A stretch of DNA of 22,011 nucleotides from a virus (taxonomy: Duplodnaviria > Heunggongvirae > Uroviricota > Caudoviricetes), in the IMG/VR virus record IMGVR_UViG_2609459830_000015; one strand, given 5' to 3'. The notes under the pieces are model-generated. The model ran no database searches and was not told where the DNA came from. It saw only the letters and a list, made by a program, of their open reading frames with translations. Both the position numbers and the translations under genes were made by a program. This document shows, one piece after another, positions 1-22,011 of this stretch (the stretch's first letter is position 1; every line of letters starts with the position of its first letter).

Positions 1-349
1 GGCGTAAGAGGCCCCGGAACGTTATCGTTCACACGGACCGTGGAGGCCAGTACTGTTCAGCAGATTATCAGGCGCAACTGAAGCGGCATAATCTGCGTGG
101 AAGTATGAGCGCAAAAGGTTGCTGCTACGATAATGCCTGCGTGGAAAGCTTCTTTCATTCGCTGAAAGTGGAATGTATCCATGGAGAACACTTTATCAGC
201 CGGGAAATAATGCGGGCAACGGTGTTTAATTATATCGAATGTGATTACAATCGGTGGCGGCGGCACAGTTGGTGTGGCGGCCTCAGTCCGGAACAATTTG
301 AAAACAAGAACCTCGCTTAGGCCTGTGTCCATATTACGTGGGTAGGATC
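1..349 (+). mobile_element. IS3-family insertion sequence, right-hand end only (element continues left of the window)
   Basis: Transposase OrfB C-terminal coding sequence runs into the window and stops at 320; 321-349 (ggcctgtgtccatattacgtgggtaggatca) reads as a terminal inverted repeat ending TGGGTAGGATCA, consistent with the 5'-TG...CA-3' termini of IS3-family elements. Exact boundary is +/- a few bp. Confidence 0.85.
3..320 (+). CDS. IS3-family transposase OrfB, C-terminal fragment (5' end outside window)
   Basis: Frame 3 is open from the window edge: ...[51 protein letters not shown]...[22 protein letters not shown]. The HTDRGxQY and CYDNAxxESFF blocks are the DDE-region signatures of IS3-family OrfB. 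Confidence 0.9.
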
Positions 350-471
350 ACGCAGGGGTCGGCCCATTTGAGCTTCAGATAGGAACGTTTGAATTCCTTT
401 CACAAAATACATCACATACTGAACGTGAACATTCCCACTTTGATCTTAAGGCCAAAAAGTATGCAGGACTA

Positions 472-2190
472 ATGATTTTTAGGGATAGCTTGAGAGTATT
501 ACCTTATGGTCGAGTAGATAATGATTTCTTCCAGATAGAAGAAAGACGTTCATGGAATGCAGGGCGATATTATTGGTCTAATAGAAGGATTTTTGGTTAT
601 ATTGGAATTACTCAATCCAGTAATAAAGAGCTGAAAGATAAGTCGGGGAGAGAGGGATTCATAAGAAACCAGGCTGCAAGAGAACTGAAAACTATTATAT
701 CTAATTTGTTAACTGAACTTGCTGATAGATTTTTTGGTTCACGTTCTGATGACCGTAAAGAGCTTTTAGAACAAGTTAAGCGTGAAAAAGAGTTAAGAAA
801 ATCTGCTCAACAACAAGCTCGAAAATCAACACAAAAAAGTTTTTCAGAAGCTTTGAAGAATCAGACACCAGTTCTTGATGCTTCCTTGGAGGCTGTTAAA
901 AGGCTGAAAACTAAGCTTGATAAAACTGATGGTTCGTTAGATTTAAACTATCTTAAAATTATAGACAGTGATCTTACAAACTTAGATGCGTTGCGCAGTG
1001 AAATTAAAACGCCTATCAAACCTCCAAAACTTGGAATGTATGAAGAGAAATATAGAGACTACAGAGATAAATTTAATGAGTTCTCTGCGTATATTCTACA
1101 AATGAAGTTAGCAATTAATAAACTTGATTCTGAATTAAATAAACTTGAGCCTTCATTGTCAGCGAAAAATCACCTTGAAAAAAATCAAGGTATTATTAAT
1201 TCTAAACTAACTAAGTTTAATAACACGATAGAGGAGAAGATACATTCTCTTTTAAAAAAATGGGCCGATGAAATAAAGGTTGATCGAAGTGATTATTATG
1301 CTAAAACTATATCAGTTGTTGATTCAATAGATAATGATTCACAAATTGAAAATGTGTTTAATTTGCTCGATAGTTTATATGTTGAGTCAGTTGATACCCT
1401 AACTTTCAAATATCAATCAATAATAAAAGGTCTCGATAGATTATTTGAAGGTATAAACTTAGATTCAGCATTCTCATTATCTGAAGAAGAACGCTCATAT
1501 TTTGAAGAAAAAGCTAAAAGTTTAAACGCGCTTGCACAGTTAGGTATTAGTGTTGAGATAATATCTCATGAACTTGAAGAAATGGATTCTATGGTAACCA
1601 GAGGACTAAACTCTCTTCCTACTTCTGTAAAAGAACACCCTGGTTTTTCATTGGCGTTAAATGCTCACAGATCGCTTACTCAACAAATACGTTTCTTATC
1701 ACCTTTGAAAATATCAGGTTATCAATCCAGGCAGAGAATAACTGGAAAAAATATCATGGATTATGTCCTGAAGTTCTTTGGGGAGCGTTTCGAACGGCAA
1801 CGAATAACTATTGAATTTAGTGAAGAGTTTAAGCAAATCGCAATAACAGATATACCATCAAGGATCTATCCTGTTTTTACTAATATTATCAACAATGCAA
1901 TGTATTGGGTCAGTCTGTCAAATAATAGGCTCATAAAGATTGGTTTTGTGAATTCTTTGGTTATCATAGCAAATTCTGGTCCGGCAATTGATACCGATGA
2001 TATCCCGCGACTATTTGAACTATTTTATAGCAAAAGAGCAAATGGACATGGGGTAGGTCTGTATCTATGTCGAGAAAACCTTGCTGTTGCACATCATAAA
2101 ATATGGTATTCAGAACCTGATGAAGGCGATAACTATTTAATAAAAGATGGCGCTAATTTTGTGATCCAGTTCAATGGAGTGGAGTTCTAA
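472..2190 (+). CDS. Histidine kinase core (coiled-coil region, HisKA-like H-box, HATPase_c); probably 5'-truncated by the IS3 insertion
   Basis: 572-aa ORF. C-terminal third shows an H-box (LGISVEIISHELEEMDSMV), N-box (VFTNIINNAMYW), G1 box (IANSGPAIDTDDIPRLFELFYS) and G2 box (GHGVGLYLCRENLAV). The N-terminal ~250 aa are K/E/L-rich, coiled-coil-like. The same frame is open upstream from 346 (immediately after the IS3 end) to the first ATG at 472, with no stop. Confidence 0.8.
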   Translation: MIFRDSLRVLPYGRVDNDFFQIEERRSWNAGRYYWSNRRIFGYIGITQSSNKELKDKSGREGFIRNQAARELKTIISNLLTELADRFFGSRSDDRKELLEQVKREKELRKSAQQQARKSTQKSFSEALKNQTPVLDASLEAVKRLKTKLDKTDGSLDLNYLKIIDSDLTNLDALRSEIKTPIKPPKLGMYEEKYRDYRDKFNEFSAYILQMKLAINKLDSELNKLEPSLSAKNHLEKNQGIINSKLTKFNNTIEEKIHSLLKKWADEIKVDRSDYYAKTISVVDSIDNDSQIENVFNLLDSLYVESVDTLTFKYQSIIKGLDRLFEGINLDSAFSLSEEERSYFEEKAKSLNALAQLGISVEIISHELEEMDSMVTRGLNSLPTSVKEHPGFSLALNAHRSLTQQIRFLSPLKISGYQSRQRITGKNIMDYVLKFFGERFERQRITIEFSEEFKQIAITDIPSRIYPVFTNIINNAMYWVSLSNNRLIKIGFVNSLVIIANSGPAIDTDDIPRLFELFYSKRANGHGVGLYLCRENLAVAHHKIWYSEPDEGDNYLIKDGANFVIQFNGVEF

Positions 2191-2191
2191 T

Positions 2192-3940
2192 ATGACAGTG
2201 GCAAATTATAATTCTCTTGTCCAGAAAACTTTCTGCGAAAATGCAATTCGTTCCGTTGTCATGATTGATGACGATTTTCTGACGTATTCTGAATCAATCA
2301 GGGCGTTGAATAACGAAGTTGATTTAGACTACAACAAAATTGACTCATCTAAACGAGCCGCTACTCTTGAGAGCTTTTTTCAATCTAAAAATATGATTTG
2401 TGATGTTGACAATGGTTCTGTTAATTTCGATGTGGATCGGATTAGAAAATCAGATCTTATTATTGTAGATTATCATCTTGATAATAATGCACCTGATAAA
2501 ACACTTAAACTATTACAAGATTTGAAAGACTCCGATCATTTAAATATGATTGTAATATATACTAGAGAGAATTTAGAAACGGTTTGGATGCAGATATCAT
2601 CGACTCTCAAAGGTGCTCTGGATATCAACAGCTTGATCATTGACTACGATAATGAAGATGTCCAAAGTTATTGGGAAGACGTTGTATTACCGAACTTAAA
2701 TGATAATGGTAATAAAGCTCTCACAAGAGATGAAACAATAGCCTATATTAAAGACAGTAAGCCTTGTAGAAGAATTAAAAGATTAATACATGATGATGCT
2801 GTGTTGGAGGATCAAAAGGATAAAAACTTCATTGCAAAAATGATTGCAGAATATGCTGTGTCTAGAAATGCAATTATTTCTAGCAACACATCTGGCAATG
2901 TCATTCGGGGTGATGAAAGCGGAGTAAAATGGATTCAATGTGGTAATATCTTTGTCTCCCTATTTCATAAGGTTCAAGATGATCATGAAAACGATGGAGA
3001 TAGAATTTGGCAAACTCTCAATGATTCTCTCATTGAATGGAAACCATCTTATTATCAGTTAATAAAATCTGAAATTCAGAATGCAATCGAAGCTGAGGCT
3101 TTATCTTTTGTAAATCATTTGGCTAACGATCATTACGGTCAAGCTGCGTGGTTAAATGAGATATTAAAATCAGACTCGCCTGATATTAGATGTAGAAATA
3201 TTGACTTTGTATTTGGTAATTTATCAGAAGAGCTTTATCAAAGACTTAAAAATAATAATACGCTGGATGAATTTATCAAAAGTGTTTTTGATAGCTATTC
3301 AAATGAATACGCTAACAGCGGAGTTGCTGCATTGCTCCAATATTGCTCTTCAAAAATGGATCTGCCATCAAATAATGATACTTATCACGAAATGTATCAT
3401 GCTTTAAATATGAATTTGTCTTCAAAGAATTTTGAAGATGGTCATATTTCTACTGGCACTATTTTCTTTGATACAGAGTCGAACAAATGGTATTTATGTG
3501 TATCTGCGGCATGTGATTTGGTTCCTACTCAGGGTAACGACCCTCACCATGTAAGATTAAGTCCGCACAGGCTCATTAAAGTTCTGGAGCTTTTTAACGC
3601 CAGTCAGAGTAAAGCATTGCCATTTGCTGAACATTCGAAATATATATATGTAATGCATAAAAATCAAAGAAAATATCTCTCTATTTTCGAAGGGGATAAA
3701 ACGCTTCCTGTTGTTGATTATATGGTGGTGTTGAATCATGGAACAACAGTTGATGGCGAAGAAAAAAATATTATTTCTGCCGTGTTTTTAAGTAATATGG
3801 ATGGCAACGTGCAAAATGTTCCTGTCCGACTCAAACTTAAATCTCAACTGAGAACTGGTTATGCAGAAAGATATCAGGCTATAGCGTCTCAGTATAGCTC
3901 AAGGATTGGTGTGGATTATGTATCAATGATGCTACCATAA
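2192..3940 (+). CDS. Receiver (REC)-like domain protein with a large C-terminal domain of unknown function (putative phosphorylation-controlled effector)
   Basis: N-terminus resembles a response-regulator receiver: acidic beta1 (VVMIDDD), candidate phospho-acceptor Asp at the end of beta3 (DLIIVDYHLDNN), Thr after beta4 (MIVIYT), then a Lys. The remaining ~430 aa have no motif I recognise. Start taken as ATG 2192 (GGAG at 2181-2184, 7 nt upstream; 1 nt after the kinase stop); an in-frame ATG at 2174 is the alternative. Confidence 0.7.
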   Translation: MTVANYNSLVQKTFCENAIRSVVMIDDDFLTYSESIRALNNEVDLDYNKIDSSKRAATLESFFQSKNMICDVDNGSVNFDVDRIRKSDLIIVDYHLDNNAPDKTLKLLQDLKDSDHLNMIVIYTRENLETVWMQISSTLKGALDINSLIIDYDNEDVQSYWEDVVLPNLNDNGNKALTRDETIAYIKDSKPCRRIKRLIHDDAVLEDQKDKNFIAKMIAEYAVSRNAIISSNTSGNVIRGDESGVKWIQCGNIFVSLFHKVQDDHENDGDRIWQTLNDSLIEWKPSYYQLIKSEIQNAIEAEALSFVNHLANDHYGQAAWLNEILKSDSPDIRCRNIDFVFGNLSEELYQRLKNNNTLDEFIKSVFDSYSNEYANSGVAALLQYCSSKMDLPSNNDTYHEMYHALNMNLSSKNFEDGHISTGTIFFDTESNKWYLCVSAACDLVPTQGNDPHHVRLSPHRLIKVLELFNASQSKALPFAEHSKYIYVMHKNQRKYLSIFEGDKTLPVVDYMVVLNHGTTVDGEEKNIISAVFLSNMDGNVQNVPVRLKLKSQLRTGYAERYQAIASQYSSRIGVDYVSMMLP

Positions 3941-4011
3941 TTATTATATTTTAGGCGTGGTGATTTTTTTTCGCCATGCCTATTTTATATTTATCATCAC
4001 AATGATGTTGT

Positions 4012-4428
4012 TTATTTTTGTTTAAGTCTTCTAAGCTTCATGCATTCTAATGAGAATAATAATAGAGTTGTGCTGTATATAAAGCCAGAGTTAGTTAATA
4101 ACTTTAAATTTAATGCTTCAGGATTTTCACTGAGAAAGTGAAAGGCATAAACTAAGTATACAGCTAAAGTAGCCGTTCCAATTGTTGGTCCAATATCGCC
4201 TTGATCATGAGGTTCAAGGTTTACATTGAACTTGAAGATTAGCCATTCAAATCCCCAAGTAAAAAAAACAACTAATATCATGGCTGCGAATAATTTCGCG
4301 ATGTTATCTGCTGATGGATTCATCAGAACAGATTGTTTCTGAAAAAATTCACAAAGTGAGAGTCCGAAAAAAATAAAAAAAAGTGGTCTGGAACTAAATT
4401 TTTCAAAAACTTTGAATAGGGTTTCCAT
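4012..4428 (-). CDS. Small integral membrane protein (about 4 predicted TM helices), unknown function
   Basis: 138-aa ORF with hydrophobic stretches (PLFFIFFGLSLCEFF; LFAAMILVVFFTWGFEWLIF; IGTATLAVYLVYAFHFL; GFIYSTTLLLFSL). AT-rich like the kinase/REC cargo. Starts 38 bp downstream of the integrase stop on the same strand. Confidence 0.55.
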   Translation of the reverse strand: METLFKVFEKFSSRPLFFIFFGLSLCEFFQKQSVLMNPSADNIAKLFAAMILVVFFTWGFEWLIFKFNVNLEPHDQGDIGPTIGTATLAVYLVYAFHFLSENPEALNLKLLTNSGFIYSTTLLLFSLECMKLRRLKQK

Positions 4429-4466
4429 TTTCTTTACCTTCAGGATTATATTAGCTATTCTGATAC

Positions 4467-5738
4467 TTAGGCTACCAGAGCATTTGATCTTTGAGCTTGA
4501 ACGTAATCACTCCACCATTGCATCAAACTCTGTCGCTCTATCAGATATTCTGCACGATTGTATGCTGCGATAATTTCATCTTTTTTCGAGTGGGCAAGCG
4601 CTGCCTCAAGAACTTCAGCTCTGAATTTACCAGACTCCTCTGCCGCTGTTCGTGCAATAGAACGCATACCGTGAGCTACAAGCTCGCCTCCGAACCCCAT
4701 TCGGATGATAGCTGCGTTGGCTGTTTGTTCATGCATATGATTAAGAGGCGCTTTTATGCTGGGGAAAACCCATTCTCTATGCCCACTTATTGATTTCATT
4801 AATTCAAGGATGCGCAAAGCTTCTTTACTCAAAGGAACTTTGTGAAGCTTTTTCATTTTCATGAAATCAGCAGGAATGTTCCAAATGCTGTTGGTTGTAT
4901 CAATATCAGACCACCTTGCGCGAACGGCTTCACCCGGACGAACCCATGTCAACAATTGCCATTCAATTAGCATACGTGTTTCCAACCGGATTGACGCATT
5001 CGTCAAAGATTCCATAAACCTTGGCAATTCGCTTGGGGGAAGGGCAGGCATATTTTGCTTTTTTGGTTTACTGAATCTTTGACCAAGGTTGTCAGCCGGG
5101 TTGAACTCAATAAGTTCTTCAGTAGCTGCCCACCGGAAGATTTCATTCAGACGTGAAATGATACGGCGTAGAGTTTCCAATACGCCTCGTTGCTCAATAG
5201 GATCAAGGTGTTGTTTTAAGAGCTTAGGTCGGATCTCATTGATAGGGACATTACCCAGACCGGGAAAGACATTTCTCTCTAAGCTGCGCCAGATGTCTGC
5301 TGCATGGTCTTGTGAGATACCTGATGTCTTTACCTTCTCATCTAACCATTTCCGCGCTACGGCTTGGAGAGTGTGCTCAGTAGCACTCTTTAATGCCTTC
5401 GCCTTATCGTTGTTATGGATTTGGGGATCAACACCATTTGCCAGAAAGGAGAGATATTCATCACGTAAGGCTCTGGCTCTTGCAAGGGTAAGGTGAGGAT
5501 ATGTCCCAAGGCTCATTTTGGTTCTTTTCTTGCTCACTGGTACTGCATACCTGAAATACCAATTTTTCTTGCCTCCTTTCGCCAAAGGAGCGATTCGTAG
5601 AATCAGACCATCACCGTCAAACAAGTTGATTTCTTTATCGGCTGGCTTGGTGCTTTTGATTTCAGTGTCAGTGAGCTTCTTAGCGATTTTTGCCATTTTG
5701 GGACCCTCGGTTTTTGGACCCTTCTTAGTGGGTCCCAT
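4467..5738 (-). CDS. int: P4-type tyrosine integrase (IntA/CP4-57-like family)
   Basis: 423-aa ORF. N-terminal arm-binding region typical of P4-family integrases (KLTDTEIKSTKPADKEINLFDGDGLILRI...KNWYFRY) and a C-terminal catalytic region (...AHGMRSIARTAAEESG...EAALAHSKKDEIIAAYNRAEY) with the R...HxxR...Y pattern. The true start is probably the internal Met (MAKIAKKLTD, about 5696). Confidence 0.9.
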   Translation of the reverse strand: MGPTKKGPKTEGPKMAKIAKKLTDTEIKSTKPADKEINLFDGDGLILRIAPLAKGGKKNWYFRYAVPVSKKRTKMSLGTYPHLTLARARALRDEYLSFLANGVDPQIHNNDKAKALKSATEHTLQAVARKWLDEKVKTSGISQDHAADIWRSLERNVFPGLGNVPINEIRPKLLKQHLDPIEQRGVLETLRRIISRLNEIFRWAATEELIEFNPADNLGQRFSKPKKQNMPALPPSELPRFMESLTNASIRLETRMLIEWQLLTWVRPGEAVRARWSDIDTTNSIWNIPADFMKMKKLHKVPLSKEALRILELMKSISGHREWVFPSIKAPLNHMHEQTANAAIIRMGFGGELVAHGMRSIARTAAEESGKFRAEVLEAALAHSKKDEIIAAYNRAEYLIERQSLMQWWSDYVQAQRSNALVA

Positions 5739-5861
5739 TCAGGGTGCCATAACTCGTAGTTCTCAGCAATTCTCACTGGACGACAATAGACGTAAAAAAG
5801 CCCGCAGAGCTTGTGCTGTGTGGGCTTAGTAGACTTCATTGAACTTCAAACAACTAAAAAG

Positions 5862-5897
5862 TGGTGGGCTGGCGGGAGTTGAACCCGTATCCGAAAA
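5862..5897 (-). other. att-site core: degenerate copy of the tmRNA (ssrA) 3' end, not a complete gene
   Basis: Minus strand reads ...CGGGTTCAACTCCCGCCAGC-CCACCA, matching the 3' terminus of E. coli tmRNA as I recall it (GCGGGTTCAACTCCCGCCAGCTCCACCA) with one base missing and two substitutions just upstream; similarity decays after about 36 nt and no ssrA 5' sequence is present at 5898-6230. Same orientation as, and 124 bp upstream of, the P4-type integrase. Confidence 0.6.
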
Positions 5898-6154
5898 ATT
5901 CTTAACCAATTGAATATTAATGATTTTTCTAATTTAAAATACCTCACGTGCATTTTACGTGCATATTGTAGTACCTCTAACGTCCTGATTCTGTCCAACA
6001 TTTTGAAGTGTTTAGGCGCCACTGGGGCGGTGATTAGCGCTGTTTTGTGCTGTTCATAGCACTTCAAGACTATTCAATTCAGAGCAATCGTTGAAGAATT
6101 ACCCGTAAGGTAATATCATACTATTTAGGTAACTGCGGTTATCACCATCAAGGG

Positions 6155-6188
6155 CCACTGATGACGCTGTTATCATCAGTGGCTTTTT
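6155..6188 (+). terminator. Rho-independent terminator-like hairpin (plus strand)
   Basis: Perfect 10-bp stem CCACTGATGA / TCATCAGTGG (6155-6164 / 6173-6182) with an 8-nt loop, followed by CTTTTTGT. No T-run on the opposite strand, so it is unidirectional. Confidence 0.6.
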
Positions 6189-6230
6189 GTACCTTCACTG
6201 CACAGCCAGTGAAGTGTTGAGGAGACTAGC

Positions 6231-6572
6231 ATGAGAACAGTAGCGAGAAGATCGATACAGACGATTGAGCGTCGGACTCAACTCGTCAGTTCTTTTGTTG
6301 ACTCAAACACAGCAAACGAGTTCTTCGTGAGAAGACTGAGTGATCGTGTCTCCCCGGCACGTCAGCTGTTTATTGTGACATTGAACAATGAGGTTCGTGA
6401 CGGTGACGTGATCCCGTTCGCTGAGATCGCCATGAACAAAGAAAAATTGCGCTATGTTGTGAAGCCAGCAGATCAGTATCCTCAGTATGTAAGCAGTAAT
6501 CTGCTGAAGAAAATTGAAGCGGCAATTGCTCTATACATGCAGAAGAACTACAGGGAAATTAACTACCATTAA
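6231..6572 (+). CDS. Hypothetical protein (113 aa), first gene of a cargo cassette between att and the prophage integrase
   Basis: ORF preceded by GAGGAG (6219-6224) 6 nt before the ATG; no recognisable motif. An 8-bp-stem hairpin (CTTCACTG...CAGTGAAG, 6193-6214) sits in the leader. Confidence 0.6.
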   Translation: MRTVARRSIQTIERRTQLVSSFVDSNTANEFFVRRLSDRVSPARQLFIVTLNNEVRDGDVIPFAEIAMNKEKLRYVVKPADQYPQYVSSNLLKKIEAAIALYMQKNYREINYH

Positions 6573-6583
6573 AAGGTTGCTGA

Positions 6584-7351
6584 ATGGCTCCTGCGTTAAT
6601 ACCTTCATATAACAAGGACTTGAACATTACGCCATTTGGCGAAAAACGTCTTATTGAGTCATTCTATTTTTTCACTGCCGAGGCTGGCTTACTGAGGGCT
6701 GATGAGTACATTGTCAGTTCTGGTGAGTTTCAGTACTACTTGGATGTGTATCAACTGGGATGTTCCACCGACGACTTTTTTTTAGACTATGGCAGTGACC
6801 TTCTTGATTCGAAGGTTCCAATGCAGGATCTGGTCAATACCCTCTTGGGTCTTGATATGGTAGACGATAACAAAACGATAAGAATAGGTCGTATACAGTT
6901 CAACGACTTTAATTTTATCGAAGAGAACGGTCAGATGATGACCGGAAAGCAAGTGAAAAGCGCTGTTATCGCACAGGATTTCCAATCAGCAGGTTTGGCG
7001 CGTGAGATCTATAAAATGCTTGCGCGAAAGCATGAGTTTCTCATCTGCGATAACATTCAAAGTATTGCCGGTGGTGCTCTTTGGGCTAGTAGCATCATTC
7101 GAATTGCCGAGGTACGGATCTACAATTCACGCACGAAGAAATTTATGGACATACTTGGTCCAGGTGCGCGTGGCGTTTCAGGTACTTTGCCATGGAGTGC
7201 GAATGATCTGTCTGTAGATGAGATTGTTCGCTGGGGTCGTGCGTATGATGATGAAAACTGTTGTCGTCACATTGTACATGTTATCTGTAAGGACCGACTC
7301 ATTGACGATCAATTTCATGATTATGTTTCGATAGGTGGCGCGACAGAATAA
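6584..7351 (+). CDS. Hypothetical protein (255 aa), second gene of the att-int cargo cassette
   Basis: ORF starts 11 bp after the upstream gene's stop and is followed by a terminator; no recognisable catalytic motif. Confidence 0.65.
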   Translation: MAPALIPSYNKDLNITPFGEKRLIESFYFFTAEAGLLRADEYIVSSGEFQYYLDVYQLGCSTDDFFLDYGSDLLDSKVPMQDLVNTLLGLDMVDDNKTIRIGRIQFNDFNFIEENGQMMTGKQVKSAVIAQDFQSAGLAREIYKMLARKHEFLICDNIQSIAGGALWASSIIRIAEVRIYNSRTKKFMDILGPGARGVSGTLPWSANDLSVDEIVRWGRAYDDENCCRHIVHVICKDRLIDDQFHDYVSIGGATE

Positions 7352-7363
7352 CCATCAAAAAGA

Positions 7364-7387
7364 CCCGGCATTTGCCGGGTTTTTTCT
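7364..7387. terminator. Bidirectional rho-independent terminator between convergent genes
   Basis: Hairpin CCCGGC-ATTT-GCCGGG (7364-7379) flanked by an A-run upstream and T-run downstream (aaaaaGACCCGGCATTTGCCGGGtttttt), so it works for the plus-strand cassette and the minus-strand integrase. Confidence 0.6.
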
Positions 7388-7392
7388 TCAAA

Positions 7393-15335: not shown

Positions 15336-15748
15336 AGGTACCCGAACAGAAGCAGGCTTAAAGGTGCCTGTTCAGGTTGGCAACCAACTGACCCAACTCC
15401 TCATGTGTACTAGGGAAGTAGTACGTTTTTATGGGGAAGAGGGTAAGGGGGGTAAGGGGGGATTGGGTGTTGGGGCAGGAATAGGGTCTTTTCCAACAGG
15501 AGAGATCCATTGGTTAAGTAGATCACTGTCTTAAGGGCGCAATTTAAAAAAACGCCCGTATCAGCAAGGTAGTACAAAGCGCTCAGGCGCTGAGAAACGA
15601 AAAGGGTTCTTCCTGGAAGAGTGATTTTTCAGAGGAGCTGAATCAGAAGGGAGGCTGGCAGCCTTTGGGGAGGCCACCAGCCATGTGAGGGGGAATCCAT
15701 GAAAACCACATCACAAAATTATTATCTCATCAGCACGGGAGCTGCACA

Positions 15749-17407
15749 ATGGAGCTGACGATCACGCCGAATTTTGCACAGGAACGAGCGTTAAACATGT
15801 TGCGCCGTGACTGGAAGGCAAACGACACCTTCATGGTTTACTCGCCAACAGGTAGCGGTAAAACGGGTCTGGCAGCCTTCATAGTTGCTGGTTTTGTCAG
15901 CCGTGGTATGCGTGTTCTGTTCTGTGTTCCGTACACCATCCTGATTGGTCAGACGGCTAATCGGTTCGTGCAGTATGGTTTACCTGGAGATGAAATCGGT
16001 TATATCTGGGCGGATCACCCGAACTACGATCCGGACCGGAAAATTCAGATTGCCAGCGCTGACACGCTTATTCGTCGTGTTTTTCCTGAAAATATCGATC
16101 TGCTGATTATCGACGAAGCGCACCTGCGTAAAAAACGCATCCTGAAGGATATCGAACGTCTGCGCGGCAAAGGCGTAAAGGTGATTGGCCTGTCGGGTAC
16201 TCCGTTTTCTCCGTTCCTGGGCAAATACTATGACCGACTGATTAAGCCGACCACCATCGGCGAGTTAATCCAGCGTGGCGATCTGAGTAAATACGAATTT
16301 TACGCGCCAACTAAGCCGGATCTGAAAGGTGTTAAAACCACATCTTCGCTTGAGTACGGCCGCGATTACAACGAAACACAGCTGGCTGAAATCATGTGCG
16401 GCTCTACGCTGGTGGGCGACATCGTACAGAACTGGCTGGAGAATGGTCGGGATTTACCTACCATCGCTTTCTGCGTCAACGTAGCTCACGCCAATTATCT
16501 GACAATCCAGTTTAACCTGGCGGGTGTTAACGCTGAGGTAATGACCGCCGACACTCCGGTAGATGAGCGCCAGACCATCATTCACCGCTTTGAAACCGGT
16601 GCAACGAAAATCATCGTTAGTGTGGGCGTTCTGGTGGCCGGCTTTGATAGTGACGTTCGTTGCATCATCTACGCCAGGCCAACAAAAAGCGAAATTCGCT
16701 GGTTGCAGGCTCTCGGGCGTGGGCTGCGCACCGCACCGGGTAAAGAGTCCTGCCTTATCTTCGATCACAGCGGCACCGTGCACCGTTTGGGTTATCCGGA
16801 TTCAATCGAGTACGACGAGCTTCCCGGTAAGTCTGACGGCATGGAGGAAAGCGCGCGCCGGGCAGTTGAGGAACGGGCCGAAAAACTGCCACATGAATGC
16901 CCTCAATGCCACTACATGAAGCCAGCAGGCGTCTATGTTTGCCCGAAATGTGGACACAAGCCGCTGCGAGGTGAAGACGTTGATACTGACACTAGCCGCA
17001 AACTTAATAAGCTGGGTAAAAATCAGCATCAGTCGACGAAGGCAGAGAAACAGTCCTGGTGGAGTCAGATCAAATTTTATCAGCGCCAGCGTGCTTCGCT
17101 GGGGCGTCCAGTCAGTGACGGATGGTGTGCTCACACTTTCCGGGAAAAGTTCGGTGAGTGGCCTGACGGACTGAGTAACTTTCCGATGGAAATTACCCCT
17201 GAGGTAAATAACTACATCAGACACAAACTGATCCGGTTTGCCAAAGGCCACCAGCGGGTTCAGAAGGTCACTGAAAACGCACAAACAACGATTGATTTAT
17301 CTCAGGAACGTGATGAACGACGTGAGATACCGGCAGGCAGTGAGGCCTGGCGCATCATGCAGGCAAAGCACCAACTCCAGAAAAATATAAACAGTCTGAG
17401 TCAGTAA
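15749..17407 (+). CDS. SF2 DEAD/DEAH-box helicase with C-terminal zinc-ribbon (phage replication helicase)
   Basis: Walker A (YSPTGSGKTG), DEAH box (LLIIDEAH), motif III (LSGTPF), motif VI (QALGRGLRT), and a C-terminal CPQC...CPKCG zinc-ribbon. Confidence 0.85.
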   Translation: MELTITPNFAQERALNMLRRDWKANDTFMVYSPTGSGKTGLAAFIVAGFVSRGMRVLFCVPYTILIGQTANRFVQYGLPGDEIGYIWADHPNYDPDRKIQIASADTLIRRVFPENIDLLIIDEAHLRKKRILKDIERLRGKGVKVIGLSGTPFSPFLGKYYDRLIKPTTIGELIQRGDLSKYEFYAPTKPDLKGVKTTSSLEYGRDYNETQLAEIMCGSTLVGDIVQNWLENGRDLPTIAFCVNVAHANYLTIQFNLAGVNAEVMTADTPVDERQTIIHRFETGATKIIVSVGVLVAGFDSDVRCIIYARPTKSEIRWLQALGRGLRTAPGKESCLIFDHSGTVHRLGYPDSIEYDELPGKSDGMEESARRAVEERAEKLPHECPQCHYMKPAGVYVCPKCGHKPLRGEDVDTDTSRKLNKLGKNQHQSTKAEKQSWWSQIKFYQRQRASLGRPVSDGWCAHTFREKFGEWPDGLSNFPMEITPEVNNYIRHKLIRFAKGHQRVQKVTENAQTTIDLSQERDERREIPAGSEAWRIMQAKHQLQKNINSLSQ

Positions 17408-17408
17408 G

Positions 17409-18377
17409 ATGAAAACAGCAGATGCAGCGAAAGGCCGCTGGCCTGAAATATTAGAGCACTTCGGTCTGCCGCCGATAACCGGAAAAAATCACTTCAAGGG
17501 TGAATGCCCGGTATGCGGTGCACGTGGCAAGTTCCGAATTGACGACCGCGACGGTGCAGGAACGTGGATCTGTGTATGTGGTAGTGGCGATGGTATGAAA
17601 CTTGTCACCCTGACACAGGCGAAGCCATTTAACGAGATTTGTACCGAAATAGACCGCCTGATCGGTAATGATTACCAACGGGTTAAAATCCCGGTAACCA
17701 GCAGCGCCACCAGCTTACGCAAACGGGTATTGAGCAAGTTTTCAAAACTGGAGGCACTGCGTGGTACATCCGGCGCAGCGTATCTTAATTCTCGTGGAAT
17801 ATTCAGTCTTCCTGCTGAGGCGATCCGGTTCAATGCCAGGCAGAGACACAACGGGAGTGTGTTCCAGTCTCTTTATTCACTTGCTACGGACGATAAAGGG
17901 GAGTTGTGCTATCTGCACCAGACTCTGCTTGATGGTGATAAAAAAGCAGATATCGGTAGCAGTGCAAAGCGCCTCAAATCCCTGCAGGAAGATAACTATT
18001 TGGATCACGCTCGTTCTGTAGCTATCCGCATGTTTCCTGTCGCCAGCACTCTGGGTATCGCCGAAGGCATCGAAACAGCGCTGTCAGCGCACCAGATTTA
18101 TAACGTGAACACCTGGGCAACCATTAACAGCGGCTTTATGAAAAAGTTTCGCGTACCAGCTGGTGTTCTGCACCTGATTATTTTTGCCGACCGTGACGAG
18201 AACAGCGCCACCGGGCTGGCTGCGGCTTGCGAATGTGCTCATGCCAATCTGATGGCAAAGAATGACCTGCAGCGCGTGAGCGTGTACTGGCCGGATCACG
18301 ATGATTTCAACAATATGCTCATGAACGGTGATCAGGTTCGAGAGCTGGTTTTCCATAAGAAAAAGGCGGTTGCGTAA
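17409..18377 (+). CDS. DNA primase (zinc-binding N-terminus plus Toprim domain)
   Basis: CPVCGARGKFRIDDRDGAGTWICVCG zinc-binding motif; Toprim signatures (GIAEGIETALS with the conserved Glu; LIIFADRDENSATG with DxD). Starts 1 nt after the helicase stop. Confidence 0.75.
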   Translation: MKTADAAKGRWPEILEHFGLPPITGKNHFKGECPVCGARGKFRIDDRDGAGTWICVCGSGDGMKLVTLTQAKPFNEICTEIDRLIGNDYQRVKIPVTSSATSLRKRVLSKFSKLEALRGTSGAAYLNSRGIFSLPAEAIRFNARQRHNGSVFQSLYSLATDDKGELCYLHQTLLDGDKKADIGSSAKRLKSLQEDNYLDHARSVAIRMFPVASTLGIAEGIETALSAHQIYNVNTWATINSGFMKKFRVPAGVLHLIIFADRDENSATGLAAACECAHANLMAKNDLQRVSVYWPDHDDFNNMLMNGDQVRELVFHKKKAVA

Positions 18378-19234
18378 TGCGTACTGATAATAACGAACAT
18401 AAAGCACTATTCACCATCCCGACGGCAGCGTACAGCTCCGCCCTCGCAAACATCAAGCCCCTGCCAGAGCAACGGAGAATCACCGGGCATAAGCAGACTG
18501 ATGCTTATCTTTGGGTGCTGGAGGTTATCCGTCTGAACGAACCCGCACATCTGGATGCTGCTGAGGCTGCGCTGGTGAAAATTAAAATTTCCCCAAAAGA
18601 GGCTCAGGAACGCTATTCGCGTTATCTGCTGGCGAATGGTTACGAACCTTTCCAGGTTGCGTTCGGCATCATCGGCATGGATAACCCTGCGCAGGTTATC
18701 AGGAACGCCCGGGAGAACATCAAAAAAGCGGCATCAGTCAGGGCTACGTTTGGTAGCTATGAAGCAGCGCTCGAAGATGTGGAAGCAGAGCGGGTCATCA
18801 GGTCTTCCCAGAAATTTATCAACGATCATCTCTGGGGCTGGACTGCGGCAGAGAAAAAAGCCGGAAGCATTGGCGGCAGCCGCATGAACGAAATTGATGA
18901 ACAGCGTCGGGCATTTGTTGATGGATATCGCGATGTGCTGCCTGAGCCTTATACGCTGTCTGATGTTGTTCGCGAGTTCGTTTACTGGGACTGGCTCTAC
19001 AGTGTTCGCCACACTGCAACTAAAGAACAGGGCGATGAGTTTGGTTACTCTGAGCATCACGAATCGGTATATGACCGGGAGCGCTACCTTGAAAAATTGC
19101 TGGCAACCATCAAACCGGTGACACGCGCTGAAGCCGTGGAGGTGTGCCGCTGGTTTCTGGCAAGTGGTAAGGGTGAATGCATGGAAGACGACGGTGCAAC
19201 GGTCATTCTCAATCTGGTTGGTGAGTGCGAATAA
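18377..19234 (+). CDS. Hypothetical phage protein (285 aa)
   Basis: ORF coupled to the primase (TAATG overlap at 18375-18379) and to the downstream Q-like gene; no recognisable motif. Confidence 0.55.
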   Translation: MRTDNNEHKALFTIPTAAYSSALANIKPLPEQRRITGHKQTDAYLWVLEVIRLNEPAHLDAAEAALVKIKISPKEAQERYSRYLLANGYEPFQVAFGIIGMDNPAQVIRNARENIKKAASVRATFGSYEAALEDVEAERVIRSSQKFINDHLWGWTAAEKKAGSIGGSRMNEIDEQRRAFVDGYRDVLPEPYTLSDVVREFVYWDWLYSVRHTATKEQGDEFGYSEHHESVYDRERYLEKLLATIKPVTRAEAVEVCRWFLASGKGECMEDDGATVILNLVGECE

Positions 19235-19626
19235 TGCGTGATATTCAGATGGTTCTCGAACGCTGGGGGGCATGGGCGGCAAGTGGTAACGCCGGGGTGG
19301 ACTATTCTCCGATAGCTGCTGGATTTAAAGGCCTTTTACCATCCACCGCTAAACCTCGCCCGGCCTGCAGCGATGATGACGGCCTTATCATCGAAAACTG
19401 CCTTACGCGCCTGAAGAAGAAAAAACCGGACGAGTATTCGCTGCTGGTAGCTCATTATCTGCTGCGCATATCAAAAAGGCAGATTGCCAGAACAAGAAAG
19501 AAGAGCGAAAAGGCAATACGAATTGAGATGCAGATTGCTGAAGGATTTATTGACGGATGTCTGTCGATGCTGGGTGTAAGGCTGGAGATGGACGACTGGC
19601 TGCCCAAAAAAGTAAAAAATGATTAG
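19234..19626 (+). CDS. Q-like late-gene antitermination protein (phage 82/21 Q type)
   Basis: MRDIQMVLERWGAWAASGNAGVDYSPIAAGFKGLL... resembles the N-terminus of phage-82-type Q antiterminators as I recall them. A strong intrinsic terminator lies about 60 bp downstream. Start taken as ATG 19234 (TAATG overlap) rather than the track's GTG 19225. Confidence 0.6.
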   Translation: MRDIQMVLERWGAWAASGNAGVDYSPIAAGFKGLLPSTAKPRPACSDDDGLIIENCLTRLKKKKPDEYSLLVAHYLLRISKRQIARTRKKSEKAIRIEMQIAEGFIDGCLSMLGVRLEMDDWLPKKVKND

Positions 19627-19684
19627 CGCGGTCCGCAAAAAGTATGTCAGTATGTTAAGAGTGGTTACTACGCCACACAGCTTA

Positions 19685-19708
19685 AACCCGCCGCGAGCGG
19701 GTTTTTTT
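19685..19708 (+). terminator. Rho-independent terminator downstream of Q (tR'-like)
   Basis: aaaCCCGC-CGCGA-GCGGGttttttt: GC stem 19687-19701, T-run 19702-19708. Confidence 0.7.
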
Positions 19709-19823
19709 ATGGCTGAAATCGGTCCAGTACAGTAAACGCGCTGGCGGCGGTGAATACCGGTCTTTCAGCTTGCTGGCTTTTTCGACAAGAGTTATTGGTG
19801 TGTCACGTTAACCGGAAAAAGAC

Positions 19824-20021
19824 ATGCTGAAACAGCAGGATATGACCGAAACCGCCAGAGTGGTGTTTAATGAATTAAGCGTCACCGAACCGGCGACCGT
19901 CGGGGAGATTGCGCAGAATACTTACCTTTCACGCGAACGCTGCCAGTTAATACTGACCCAGCTGGTTATGGCGGGTCTGGCAGACTATCAGTTCGGTTGT
20001 TACAGACGCCTTCAGTCCTGA
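19824..20021 (+). CDS. Hypothetical small protein (65 aa)
   Basis: ORF downstream of the tR'-like terminator; its stop codon sits in the stem of a terminator-like hairpin. No motif. Confidence 0.4.
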   Translation: MLKQQDMTETARVVFNELSVTEPATVGEIAQNTYLSRERCQLILTQLVMAGLADYQFGCYRRLQS

Positions 20022-20032
20022 AGGCTTTTTTA
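20008..20032 (+). terminator. Rho-independent terminator-like hairpin
   Basis: GCCTTCA-GTCC-TGAAGGC (20008-20025) followed by TTTTTTAT. Confidence 0.5.
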
Positions 20033-20485
20033 TTTGTGGTAAATGGGCGGCTGGTGGGTGTGGTGGTTGTTGCTTTCCCGTTGCTGAAAAAGAAAGCATC
20101 AGGCGATTAGCAGGGTATCAGTTACCCGTTGAAATTTTTAAATACCTCACAATTCAGGCGGTTGACTGTTGTCTGGTTTGCGGGGAGTTTGTTAAAAGAA
20201 ACTGGCATGGTGAATCCCCCTGTGCGGAGGGGCGATCAGCAACCAGGTATATGGGATAATCGCGGATTCAGGTGCTGATACTGAATTCACCGGGAGGCAC
20301 CCGGCACCATGCTTTGCCACAAAAGTGTTGTTTCTGTTTTTCTCAAACTATCATCGTTATCCCTTTATTTCCGGCTGCGCATGGCGTGGCCTTTTTTTTA
20401 CGACCAGCCACTGGCAGATGGCCATCCTGTAATTTGATTCCGGTTCCGGCTTTTTAACTCTGTTCCTGTACACGGGAGAAATTCG

Positions 20486-20774
20486 ATGTCGATTAAACAT
20501 TATGATGTTGTCAGGGCGGCGTCGCCGTCAGACCTTGCGGAAAAGCTGACACATAAACTGAAAGAGGGCTGGCAGCCGTTTGGTAGTCCGGTGGCCATAA
20601 CCCCTTATACCCTGATGCAGGCGATTGCAGCAGAAGGTGATGTGGTGGTCAGTGGTGCAACTGAGCCGGATTGGTACTACGTCATCGTACTGGCCGGGCA
20701 GTCCAATGCAATGGCTTACGGTGAAGGGCTTCCGCTTCCGGATTCATACGATGCTCCGGATCCGCGCATTAAAC
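20486..20774 (+). pseudogene. NanS-p-like esterase gene (DUF1737-like N-terminus plus start of SGNH domain), 3'-truncated by IS66-family insertion
   Basis: MSIKHYDVVRAASPSDLAEKLTHKLKEGWQPFGSPV... then ...YYVIVLAGQSNAMAYGEGLPLP, where GQSN is the block-I motif of sialate-O-acetylesterase-type SGNH hydrolases. Protein-like sequence stops where the IS terminus GTAAGCG begins (about 20775); the rest of the track ORF is read-through into the IS. Confidence 0.6.
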
Positions 20775-22011
20775 GTAAGCGTGCAGCAAGAACCGTATTG
20801 ACGGGGATGTGTTATTCAGTCGGCAGTGCTACGCGCCAGGGGAGCAGTTCGCCGACCCGGTTTATCGGCCAGTCGGCTATGACGTCAAGGACATAGCGGA
20901 GGTAGCTTTCTGGCTCCACTCCGTTCAGTTTGCACGTCCCGATCAGGCTGTACAGCAGCGCTCCCCGCTCTCCTCCATGATCCGAACCGAAGAACAGGTA
21001 GTTTTTGCGGCCCAGACTGACCATCCGCAACGCATTTTCAGCGATGTTATTGTCAGCCTCAGCCCAGCCATCGTTCGCATAGTACGTCAGCGCCGGCCAC
21101 TGGTTCAGGGCGTATGCGAACGCTTTCGCCAGTTCTGAGTGTCGCGACAGGGTTTTCATCTTTTCACGCAGCCAGCTTTCCAGGGATTTCAGCAGCGGTT
21201 TCGTTTTCAACTGACGTTCGGCAAGGCGCTGCTCCGCCGTCATTCCCCTTATCTCTGCCTCGATGGCGTACAGTTCGCCGATCCGTTTCAGCGCTTCCTC
21301 CGTCAGGGCTGACGGGGTGCGAACGTGCACATCGTGGATTTTACGGCGGGCGTGAGCCCAACAGGCGGCTTCCGTTATCCGGCCATCCCGGTACAGCTCG
21401 TTGAACCCGGCGTATGCATCCGCCTGCAGTACACCACTGAACCCCGCAAGATGGGTCTGCGGATGGATGCCTTTTCTGTCCGGGCTGTAAGCGAACCACA
21501 CCGCCGGCGCCAGCGTTGACCCGGCGTTACGGTCGTCACGAACGTAGGTCCATAACCGCCCGGTCTTCGTTTTCTTATTGCCTGGCAACAGCACCGGGAC
21601 AGGCGTGTCATCAGCATGGAGCTTACCGTCAGTCAGCACATAGTCCTGAAGCGCTTCTTCCAGCGGTGACAGTAGCCGGCAGCATGCATCCACCCAGCCC
21701 GACAGCAGTGAACGACTCAGCTCCACGCCCTGGCGGCCGTACATTTCAGACTGGCGGTACAGCGGGGTGTGCTCTGCATACTTTGAGATCAGCACGCGGG
21801 CCAGCAGCCCCGGTCCTGCGATACCCCGCTCGATGGGCCGTGAAGGCGCGGGGGCCTGCACGATGGCATCGCACTGAGTACAGGCATGCTTTTCACGTAC
21901 AGTCCGGATAACCCGGAAGGCGCTGCGCATCAGCTCCAGCTGTTCGGCGGCATCCTCACCCAGATAGCTCAGCGAGCCTCCACATTCCGGGCAGCATGAC
22001 GCTGCCGGCAG
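20775..22011 (-). mobile_element. IS66-family insertion sequence, one end only (element continues right of the window)
   Basis: TnpC-type transposase on the minus strand running to the window edge; terminus beginning GTAAGCG at 20775, 37 bp beyond the transposase stop. The GTAAGCG terminus is from memory of IS66-family ends. Confidence 0.75.
20812..22011 (-). CDS. IS66-family transposase TnpC (N-terminus outside window)
   Basis: The minus-strand frame is open from the track's Met (21930) to the window edge: ...[48 protein letters not shown]..., giving the CxxC...CxxC zinc-finger typical of IS66 TnpC upstream of the DDE region. Confidence 0.88.

What the first reader, a model, noticed from the sequence alone, without database searches (positions are those of the whole stretch)
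5840..5900. Degenerate ssrA (tmRNA) 3'-end copy between two integrase-bearing elements: tandem integration at ssrA
The minus strand carries about 36 nt matching the tmRNA 3' terminus, with one base missing in the acceptor-stem region and two substitutions further upstream, but none of the rest of ssrA. It lies 124 bp upstream of the P4-type integrase in the same orientation, as expected for an intA-type island at ssrA, yet what precedes it is the prophage rather than the gene. The simplest reading is that a second element (the prophage at right) integrated into ssrA next to a pre-existing island, leaving this displaced att core at the junction.
Basis: partly seen in the sequence, partly recalled or inferred. 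Interest (0 to 1): 0.55.

Follow-up and report, generated by a model that had tools for sequence, protein, structure and literature searches.

The report
Displaced tmRNA-gene end between prophage and island
This is the leftover 3' end of the E. coli tmRNA gene (ssrA), stranded between a lambda-like prophage and an older integrase island when the phage inserted into ssrA. Stacked insertions like this are well known; the one notable detail is that the missing base is the known delta-T357 lesion that inactivates tmRNA.

Summary
Window 5862-5896 (minus strand) matches the last 36 nt of E. coli ssrA: 33 matches, 2 substitutions and 1 missing base. No other part of ssrA is present.

- O91:H21 FWSEC0008 carries the same IS3-truncated island directly beside an intact ssrA (99.85% to window 1-5896).
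- E110019 carries the same prophage without the island (99.9% to window 5862-18187).
- O103:H2 PV16-126 has the full array: smpB, ssrA, a ~53 kb prophage, the fragment, the island, then the gab genes.

Two refinements:
- **The two substitutions are not decay.** They mark the end of a 27-nt identity block (T arm, acceptor strand, CCA) and the start of the phage arm. They occur in every carrier of this phage.
- **The missing base is T357, the U of the G3.U357 wobble pair.** It is private to this strain among about 500 complete genomes with this island flank. It is nevertheless the known recurrent lesion of displaced ssrA fragments (CP4-57 attR, CP4So and others). In IMG/VR I counted 45-46 delta-T357 fragments and none with any other single-base deletion.

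Prophage excision here should therefore either produce inactive tmRNA or be blocked. This is an instance of a known kind, of low to moderate interest.

The parts
5862..5896 (-). Displaced 3' fragment of ssrA. It is the int-proximal att junction (POB') of the prophage and also the former attL of the island. Positions 5862-5887 are the identity block (27 nt in relatives, 26 here because T357 is missing between 5867 and 5868). Positions 5888-5896 are imperfect ssrA similarity inside the phage arm.
5794..5827 (-). Intrinsic terminator hairpin plus U-run immediately after the CCA end. It is island-borne. In island-only genomes it lies directly after the intact ssrA, so it presumably terminates that gene.
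   Evidence: (partial IsrM match to the terminator)
4467..5696 (-). P4-type tyrosine integrase of the island (409 aa; the longest ORF extends to 5738). 99.8% identical to the O91 island integrase and 48% to K-12 IntA.
   Evidence: (NF007246, 440.6 bits against a cutoff of 434)
472..4428 (.). Island cargo. A histidine-kinase-like ATPase (472-2190 +; HEF_HK and HATPase_c), a Response_reg_2 protein (2174-3940 +) and a 138-aa protein of unknown function (4012-4428 -).
1..320 (+). End of an IS3 copy that truncates the island. No distal ssrA fragment (island attR) remains.
5945..5964 (+). CACGTGCATTTTACGTGCAT, a tandem 11-mer and candidate arm-type integrase site in the P arm. An exact 20-bp copy lies in the P' arm, 112 nt before the core, next to the intact ssrA of PV16-126.
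   Evidence: also visible
6231..7351 (+). Two phage ORFs of unknown function between att and int (113 aa, phrog_2594; 255 aa, phrog_3307). They sit in the usual position for phage accessory cargo.
7393..8735 (-). Prophage integrase (7393-8571; Arm-DNA-bind_2 plus Phage_integrase domains) and excisionase (8526-8735; phrog_2917).
5888..22011 (.). Left part of the lambdoid prophage: P arm, cargo, int-xis, early-left genes, CI-like repressor (13965-14657), a DEAD-box helicase ORF (15749-17407; E110019 also annotates a toprim protein next to it), the STnc100 sRNA, and an IS66-family insertion at the right end.

Best explanation
The 35-nt stretch is the displaced 3' end of the tmRNA gene ssrA. It was left at the integrase-proximal end of a lambdoid prophage that integrated site-specifically into ssrA.

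**Before the phage arrived (inferred).** ssrA was followed directly by a small P4-type-integrase island: a terminator, int, a hypothetical gene and a kinase/receiver-like pair. That island had already been truncated by IS3 and had lost its own distal att.

**The integration event (inferred from the junctions).** The phage attP carries the last 27 nt of ssrA: four of the five T-stem bases, the T loop, the T stem, the acceptor 3' strand and ACCA. It is flanked by arms that each hold a CACGTGCATTTTACGTGCAT repeat. Integration gave two junctions:
- ssrA body + core + P' arm. The gene stays functional because its 3' end is now phage-supplied. This junction is off-window.
- P arm + core + the old island-supplied 3' end and terminator. 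This is the junction in the window.

The two 'substitutions' are the first bases of the P arm.

**The missing base.** T357 pairs as the U of G3.U357, and delta-U357 tmRNA is experimentally inactive (PMC10107115). The same lesion recurs in many displaced ssrA fragments. In this strain's lineage it arose after, or independently of, the junction.

**Predicted consequence (inferred).**
- If the phage integrase exchanges strands in the T loop, excision would fuse the ssrA body to the delta-T357 end and switch tmRNA off.
- If it exchanges at the extreme 3' end, the deletion lies in the overlap region and would hinder excision.

Either way, loss of the prophage is penalised.
For: **Comparative evidence for the junction**
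- Island-only empty site: O91:H21 FWSEC0008, ordered gab genes, ygaQ', IS3, kinase, receiver, hypothetical, int, ssrA, smpB. Window 1-5896 matches at 99.85%.
- Prophage-only: E110019. Window 5862-9090 matches at 99.94% and 9088-18187 at 99.91%.
- Both elements: PV16-126, with intact ssrA at record positions 3140916-3141278 and the fragment about 53 kb away.
- The six junction sequences line up as BOB', BOP' and POB'.
- PhiR12_1 (listed host K-12) and PhiR12_5 (listed host E. coli C) carry the same P' and P arms at ssrA.

**Evidence on the att site and integrases**
- An exact 20-bp repeat lies in both arms.
- The phage integrase is 100% identical to E110019's and 95% to other ssrA-linked prophage integrases. 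An excisionase lies next to it.
- The Rfam alignment maps the identity block to the T arm plus acceptor strand and places the gap at U357.

**Evidence on delta-T357**
- K-12 CP4-57 attR reads TGGTGG-GCTGGCGG.
- Literature: PMC10107115 Table 1 and text; Islander's 'small deletion 3 bp upstream of the discriminator', with 148 damaged islands and 125 tandem arrays.
- IMG/VR counts: 45-46 delta-T357 fragments; 0 other single-base deletions across the 17 nt tested; 0 substitutions at position 357.
- Thirteen of those fragments, not counting this strain's own contig, lie next to a homologue (59-91% identity) of this phage integrase.
Against: - The intact ssrA and the far end of the prophage are outside the window, so the full array is shown only in relatives.
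- The source genome is not among the complete E. coli genomes searched. The only identical contig (L011) is probably the same assembly.
- The deletion is absent from PV16-126, E110019 and PhiR12_5, from about 500 genomes with this island flank, and from all 10 with this phage arm. A single-base assembly error cannot be excluded.
- The strand-exchange position of this integrase has not been mapped. The T-loop assignment rests on the identity block and on general knowledge of tDNA-targeting integrases.
- The local sequence does not fix the order of integration, because the fragment still holds the whole 3' core that a P4-type integrase would need.
- The prophage carries an IS66-family insertion and may not be inducible.
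Confidence: 0.88

Rival explanations
1. Reverse order. The prophage integrated into ssrA first, and the P4-type island later integrated into the displaced fragment, which served as a secondary attB.
For: The fragment keeps the complete 3'-terminal block that the K-12 P4-type element CP4-57 uses (CCGCCAGC(T)CCACCA). Both orders give the same local junction.
Against: The same island, with the same IS3 truncation and no distal att, lies directly beside intact ssrA in phage-free genomes such as O91:H21 FWSEC0008. About 500 genomes carry this island flank, and ssrA is annotated at the match in several of the listed hits. The reverse order would need identical truncations to arise independently. An island without a second att cannot have moved recently.
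Confidence: 0.07
2. The missing base is meaningless. It is either a private random decay mutation of a non-functional copy or a single-base assembly error.
For: The base is present in every close relative and in all 10 genomes with this phage arm and about 500 with this island flank. Another displaced copy (strain SJ2D) has a different small deletion, TGG. The only other identical sequence is probably the same assembly.
Against: It is exactly the base missing in K-12 CP4-57 attR and in several other genera. In IMG/VR it is the only single-base deletion seen across the 17 positions tested: 45-46 against 0. It is not in a homopolymer run.
Confidence: 0.3
3. The mosaic was assembled by homologous recombination between strains, importing a prophage-plus-junction segment, rather than by integration in this lineage.
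For: The window's left half is closest to O91/O103-type genomes and its right half to E110019-type genomes. PV16-126 shares the junction but differs from the window beyond about position 9250.
Against: This concerns inheritance only. The junction structure still requires an original site-specific integration at ssrA. The breakpoint falls exactly on the att core, and lambdoid prophages are themselves mosaic.
Confidence: 0.15
4. The stretch is a chance tRNA-like similarity, or a mis-parsed intact ssrA.
For: None beyond its short length.
Against: The 20-mer has 0 chance matches. The stretch aligns base-for-base with ssrA in six genomes. ARAGORN finds no gene and Rfam aligns only the 3' end. Sequence to the right of 5896 is phage arm, shared with the prophage-only genome E110019.
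Confidence: 0.01

Closest known systems
Tandem arrays of integrative elements at the tmRNA gene, with displaced 3' tDNA fragments (Williams 2003, 'Traffic at the tmRNA gene', as cited in the Islander database paper PMC4383910)
   Same: The element restores the gene's 3' end. A displaced 3' fragment in the gene's orientation marks the element's far end. Two integrase-bearing elements sit in series at ssrA. The identity block spans the T arm to CCA.
   Different: The inner island has lost its own distal fragment to IS3, so only one of the two elements still has both ends. By Islander's rule (each member has its own integrase and fragment) it is an array of one complete element plus a remnant.
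CP4-57 attR / delta-T357 'phage regulatory switch' of E. coli K-12, and CP4So of Shewanella oneidensis (PMC10107115)
   Same: The same base is missing (CGCCAGC-CCACCA). The deleted copy is the one that would be joined to ssrA on excision, and delta-U357 tmRNA is inactive.
   Different: There the excising element is a P4-type (or P2-type) prophage and the deleted copy is its own attR. Here the element between ssrA and the deleted copy is a lambda-like phage with a different integrase (25% identity to the island's), and the copy abuts the integrase end of a P4-type island. Excision has not been tested here. Close relatives carry the undeleted copy.
Lambdoid phages that use ssrA as attB in pathogenic E. 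coli (Stx phages at ssrA in O111, PMC2323221; the PV16-126 prophage carrying espK/espN/nleL; Escherichia phages PhiR12_1 to PhiR12_5)
   Same: Same attachment site, same P and P' arms, and integrases 95-100% identical.
   Different: The window's prophage has a different early and replication region from PV16-126 (DEAD-box helicase module, as in E110019) and carries an IS66-family insertion. Its late region and cargo lie outside the window.

Membership tests
Displaced tDNA 3' fragment (att junction of an integrated element) | Matches the 3' end of the target gene through the CCA terminus | tested here: met
   33 of 36 positions match, with a 27-nt identity block in relatives. Chance expectation is 0.
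Displaced tDNA 3' fragment (att junction of an integrated element) | An intact target gene in the same orientation on the far side of an integrase-bearing element | tested here: inconclusive
   It lies outside the window. It is met in PV16-126, which shares the junction: ssrA is about 53 kb away in the same orientation.
Displaced tDNA 3' fragment (att junction of an integrated element) | Empty-site alleles exist in which the flank is joined directly to the intact gene | tested here: met
   O91:H21 FWSEC0008 has island flank plus intact ssrA.
Displaced tDNA 3' fragment (att junction of an integrated element) | Integrase and excisionase adjacent, with arm repeats on both sides of the core | tested here: met
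   int at 7393-8571 and xis at 8526-8735. A 20-bp repeat lies in both the P and P' arms. Protein binding was not tested.
Tandem array at ssrA (Islander criterion) | Each member has its own integrase gene and its own tDNA fragment | tested here: not met
   The prophage has both. The island has an integrase but no distal fragment in the window, L001 or L006, because IS3 truncates it.
Delta-T357 'damaged' fragment / tmRNA excision switch | Single-base deletion 3 bp upstream of the discriminator in the displaced copy | tested here: met
   CCAGC-CCACCA in the window, identical to K-12 attR and to Table 1 of PMC10107115.
Delta-T357 'damaged' fragment / tmRNA excision switch | Excision of the element transfers the deletion into ssrA and inactivates tmRNA | not testable with these tools
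   This requires induction or curing and sequencing of attB. It is inferred only from the position of the identity block.
Functional tmRNA gene | Full tRNA-like domain, tag reading frame and pseudoknots | tested here: not met
   ARAGORN finds none. Rfam RF00023 scores 14.9 bits against a gathering score of 47, with only the 3' end aligned.
IsrM sRNA (Rfam RF02763) | Full-length match above the gathering score | tested here: not met
   45.4 bits against 376. Only 14 nt at the 5' end and the terminator align, and 261 nt of the model are missing.

The most novel reading that the evidence does not exclude
In this strain a lambda-like prophage, not a P4-type element, sits between ssrA and a delta-T357 copy. 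Its excision would then convert ssrA to the inactive delta-U357 allele, or be blocked. The prophage would act as a tmRNA on/off switch, or as a self-stabilising element.

More broadly, delta-T357 is the only single-base lesion seen in displaced ssrA ends, across many flanks and at least two integrase families. That points to a position-specific mutational or selective mechanism that remains unexplained. One possibility is abortive cleavage by the neighbouring P4-type integrase, which here has lost its partner site.
Probability: 0.4. Interest if true: 0.4.

Novelty: already known. Interest (0 to 1): 0.25.

Why it matters
As an annotation it is routine. It fixes the left boundary of the prophage at 5862/5888, identifies ssrA as its attB, and shows that the neighbouring island is an immobilised remnant.

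The useful point for biology is the predicted link between prophage loss and tmRNA function. If the deletion is real, curing or inducing this prophage should give cells that depend on ArfA for ribosome rescue. That would affect the fitness of cured cells and possibly phage yield.

The count of 45-46 delta-T357 fragments against zero other single-base deletions gives a number to a lesion the literature describes case by case. It also shows that the lesion is common next to lambda-like integrases. The table in PMC10107115 (as far as I read it) does not list that integrase type among the mutated cases.

Tried and rejected
- **RNA and gene scans.** ARAGORN and Rfam at gathering threshold found no tmRNA. 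Only the permissive Rfam scan picked up the 3' end.
- **Pattern search.** The 40-mer ssrA end with up to 3 mismatches found nothing, because the indel breaks a gapless match. The 20-mer core did match.
- **Source genome.** No complete E. coli genome covers 80% or more of the window. The species-representative genome scan for the deleted 27-mer found nothing. IMG/VR contig L011 is 100% identical but is probably the same assembly.
- **Literature.** A search for the PhiR12 phages returned nothing relevant. Williams 2002 (PMC100330) and Williams 2003 (PMC142792) are not held, so they are cited only through PMC4383910 and PMC10107115.
- **Defence-system search.** PADLOC found nothing for the island's kinase-like gene, the 138-aa gene or the two phage cargo ORFs, and only one marginal hit (E 0.0028) for the receiver-like gene.
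- **Island attR.** A search for a second ssrA fragment found none within 5 edits in the window, L001 or L006.
- **Spread of delta-T357 by serial site-specific recombination from one ancestral allele.** Considered, not adopted. Crossovers 5' of position 357 keep the deletion linked to its 3' flank, yet it occurs with at least five different 3' flanks. Several origins, or crossovers 3' of position 357, would be needed. This is unresolved.

Full report
**1. What is in the sequence**

On the + strand, window 5862-5896 reads TGGTGGGCTGGCGGGAGTTGAACCCGTATCCGAAA. The reverse complement of the E. coli ssrA 3' end is TGGTGGAGCTGGCGGGAGTTGAACCCGCGTCCGAAA. I took this from strain PV16-126; the K-12 sequence is the same.

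The minus strand therefore carries the last 36 positions of ssrA: 33 matches, two substitutions (5888-5889) and one missing base (between 5867 and 5868).

- The exact 20-mer core is unique in the window and never occurs in shuffles.
- ARAGORN finds no tmRNA or tRNA gene.
- A permissive Rfam scan aligns only the T arm, acceptor strand and ACCA with high posterior probability. It places the gap at the U of the acceptor strand and scores 14.9 bits against a gathering score of 47.
- No second copy exists in the window.

Immediately after the CCA end lies an intrinsic terminator (5794-5827, minus strand). After that comes a P4-type integrase. It matches NCBIfam PRK09692 above its cutoff and has Arm-DNA-bind_3, Phage_int_M and Phage_integrase domains. 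The start used in RefSeq relatives (5696) gives a gap of 165 nt.

**2. Surroundings**

To the left of the fragment:
- the integrase (4467-5696, minus strand);
- a 138-aa protein of unknown function;
- a Response_reg_2 protein and a HEF_HK/HATPase_c protein;
- the end of an IS3 copy.

To the right is a lambdoid prophage:
- two ORFs of unknown function (phrog_2594 and phrog_3307);
- an integrase with an Arm-DNA-bind_2 domain (7393-8571, minus strand), overlapped by an excisionase (8526-8735);
- early-left genes and a CI-like repressor;
- a DEAD-box helicase ORF, with a toprim protein annotated beside it in E110019;
- an STnc100 sRNA;
- an IS66-family transposase at the right edge.

**3. Comparative evidence**

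The window is E. coli chromosome at the ssrA locus. Three reference states exist.

- **(a) Island only.** O91:H21 FWSEC0008 is ordered gabP...glaH, truncated ygaQ, IS3, kinase, receiver, hypothetical, integrase, intact ssrA, smpB. Window 1-5896 aligns to it at 99.85%, through the last 35 nt of its ssrA.
- **(b) Prophage only.** E110019 has no island. The fragment abuts the ypjA side of the backbone. Window 5862-9090 and 9088-18187 align at 99.94% and 99.91%.
- **(c) Both.** O103:H2 PV16-126 is ordered smpB, intact ssrA, a ~53 kb prophage (a dinI pseudogene, espK, espN, nleL, tail, head, Q, cI, int), the fragment, the island integrase, kinase/receiver genes, IS3, and the gab genes.

The left and right alignments overlap exactly on 5862-5896, the ssrA-derived segment. 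This is the signature of attB x attP recombination. Lined up, the six junction sequences give BOB' (O91), BOP' (PV16-126 and PhiR12_1 at intact ssrA) and POB' (window, PV16-126, E110019, PhiR12_5).

The PhiR12 GenBank records list K-12 MG1655 and E. coli C as hosts, and they end in these same arms. I read them as lysogens. In the E. coli C record (PhiR12_5) the fragment sits beside a resident P4-type integrase remnant, the same kind of junction as in the window. No paper on these phages was found.

**4. Anatomy of the att site**

Across hosts with different flanks, the block shared by both ends is the last 27 nt of ssrA: CGGGTTCAACTCCCGCCAGCTCCACCA. That is four of the five T-stem bases, the T loop, the T stem, the acceptor 3' strand and ACCA.

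The two 'substitutions' lie just outside this block. They are identical in every carrier of the phage (E110019, PV16-126, PhiR12_5), so they are the first bases of the phage P arm, which retains partial ssrA similarity. They are not decay.

I reconstructed attP by joining the P' arm from PV16-126, the core, and the P arm from the window. This shows an exact 20-bp direct repeat, CACGTGCATTTTACGTGCAT (itself a tandem 11-mer). One copy lies 112 nt before the core and the other 57 nt after it (window 5945-5964). These are candidate arm-type sites for the arm-binding integrase. Binding is inferred, not shown.

The phage integrase is 100% identical to E110019's, 99.5% to PhiR12_5's and about 95% to other prophage integrases found at ssrA. 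The island integrase is 99.8% identical to O91's and only 48% to K-12 IntA.

**5. Order of events**

The local sequence cannot fix the order, because the fragment still holds the full 3' block that a P4-type integrase uses. K-12 CP4-57 attL and attR share CCGCCAGC(T)CCACCA.

Three things favour island first, phage second:
- The island is IS3-truncated and has no distal ssrA fragment in the window, PV16-126 or O91.
- The identical truncated structure lies beside intact ssrA in phage-free genomes.
- About 500 complete genomes carry this island flank.

**6. The missing base**

It is present in PV16-126, E110019 and PhiR12_5. It is also present in all full-length matches among about 500 genomes with this island flank, where the best identity is 98.5% and every record is one base longer than the query. 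All 10 genomes with this phage arm have it too. So the deletion is private to this strain's lineage.

It is not an arbitrary position, however. It is T357, the U of the G3.U357 wobble pair, three bases upstream of the discriminator.

- K-12's CP4-57 attR reads TGGTGG-GCTGGCGG.
- PMC10107115 reports that CP4-57 excision installs delta-T357. It also shows that tmRNA delta-U357 does no tagging and is synthetically lethal with an arfA deletion.
- Its Table 1 lists the same CGCCAGC-CCACCA for CP4So (Shewanella oneidensis) and a Salmonella Typhi element, and the equivalent deletion (CCCCAGC-CCACCA) for Vibrio cholerae VPI, all with P4 integrases. It also lists one S. putrefaciens element with a P2 integrase.
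[quoted passage not shown] It counts 148 damaged islands and 125 tandem arrays among 3919 islands.

I checked whether the position is special, using IMG/VR.

| Variant searched | Hits attributable to ssrA |
|---|---|
| Any 6-mer replacing the 7-mer AGCTGGC | 45 GCTGGC (delta-T357), plus 1 with an extra substitution; no other single-base deletion (5 hits with unrelated 6-mers, four of them one recurring sequence) |
| Single-base deletions in the 10-nt T-arm segment | 0 |
| Substitutions at position 357 | 0 |
| Substitution at position 356 | 4, all the same variant (ACC) in unrelated flanks; I read them as other species' genes |

- Delta-T357 fragments occur with many 3' flanks: 26 CP4-57 intA-type, 3 of this island type, 6 ypjA-side, 1 lambdoid P'-type and 9 other. 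They also occur with many element arms.
- Thirteen delta-T357 fragments, not counting this strain's own contig, lie 0.1-2.3 kb from a homologue (59-91% identity) of this window's phage integrase.
- One contig (L010) has this same island flank (99.9% identity) with delta-T357 but a different upstream element.

The lesion is therefore recurrent, position-specific and not confined to P4-type elements. Its cause remains unknown. Hitch-hiking of one allele through serial integrations does not easily explain five or more different 3' flanks. An integrase-related lesion, or selection for retaining the element, are both possible. Both are speculation.

**7. Mechanism and consequence**

Shown:
- the junction structure;
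- the empty-site alleles;
- the conserved arms;
- int and xis beside the att site.

Inferred:
- The phage supplies the functional ssrA 3' end at the off-window junction.
- The copy in the window is the former island-supplied end, now orphaned together with its terminator.

If strand exchange occurs in the T loop, excision would join the ssrA body to the delta-T357 end and inactivate tmRNA, as happens with CP4-57. The T loop is the symmetric part of the block, with CGGG and CCCG flanking TTCAACT. Placing the exchange there is general knowledge of tDNA-targeting integrases recalled from memory; the Islander paper lists 'T loop' and 'T/acceptor junction' as subsites.

If exchange occurs at the extreme 3' end, the deletion falls inside the overlap region and should impede excision. 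Either outcome penalises loss of the prophage. A single-base assembly error cannot be excluded, because the only identical contig is probably the same assembly.

**8. Verdict**

The thing itself is ordinary: a displaced tmRNA-gene end at a prophage/island junction at a well-known integration hotspot. ssrA is the target most enriched among tDNA integration sites (PMC4383910), and lambdoid Stx phages at ssrA are documented in EHEC (PMC2323221). The same junction, without the deletion, is present in a RefSeq genome.

The only feature above routine is that the missing base is the known tmRNA-inactivating delta-T357, here positioned so that a lambda-like prophage would deliver it to ssrA.

Noticed in passing
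window 5794-5863 (-): Partial Rfam match to the Salmonella sRNA IsrM: 45 bits against a gathering score of 376. Only 14 nt at the 5' end and the ~55-nt 3' terminator region align, with 261 nt of the model missing. This suggests IsrM lies in a homologous spot, between an ssrA end and a P4-type integrase, in a Salmonella island.
   Followed up: no
window 472-3940 (+): The island cargo is a HEF_HK/HATPase_c kinase-like protein (572 aa) followed by a Response_reg_2 protein (588 aa). PADLOC gives no significant match. The pair is conserved beside the integrase in O91, O103 and SJ2D genomes, whereas O157 strain 493/89 has a different cargo (HxsA, DUF6119) behind a 99% identical integrase.
   Followed up: partly
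window 6231-7351 (+): Two phage ORFs of unknown function (phrog_2594, phrog_3307) lie between att and int, preceded by a terminator-like hairpin at about 6153-6190 (+). Related ssrA prophages (O157 493/89, SJ2D) carry a DUF4760 gene at this position instead. The slot appears to hold exchangeable cargo.
   Followed up: partly
L003 11940-12000; L007 24987-25035 (-): The backbone flank of ssrA on the ypjA side (CTGTTTTT[A/G]TTGGTGTTGTCCTTA[T/C]ACCGTCCAATCATGAT) resembles the lambdoid P' arm (CTGTTTTTATTGCCGCTGTCCGATTGCAGTCCTATCAAAAG). The 'native' sequence downstream of ssrA may itself be a relic of an older element.
   Followed up: no
L009 about 4150-4190 (strain SJ2D): In SJ2D the displaced ssrA fragment next to the same island flank lacks TGG (one CCA of CCACCA) rather than T357. 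This is a different small 3'-end lesion. Compare the multi-base deletions listed for Salmonella LT2 and Yersinia pestis in PMC10107115.
   Followed up: no
window 20176-20348 (+): Full-length Rfam STnc100 sRNA (108 bits, E 4e-23) inside the prophage, just upstream of the point where an IS66-family element (transposase at 20812-21930, minus strand) interrupts similarity to E110019 at about 20774.
   Followed up: no
L010 (IMGVR_UViG_3300010260_000008) 5540-5760: Same island flank (99.9% identity over 5.7 kb) with a delta-T357 fragment that extends 45 nt into ssrA, followed by the arm of a different element. The deleted copy therefore persists beside this island under at least two different upstream elements.
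   Followed up: partly
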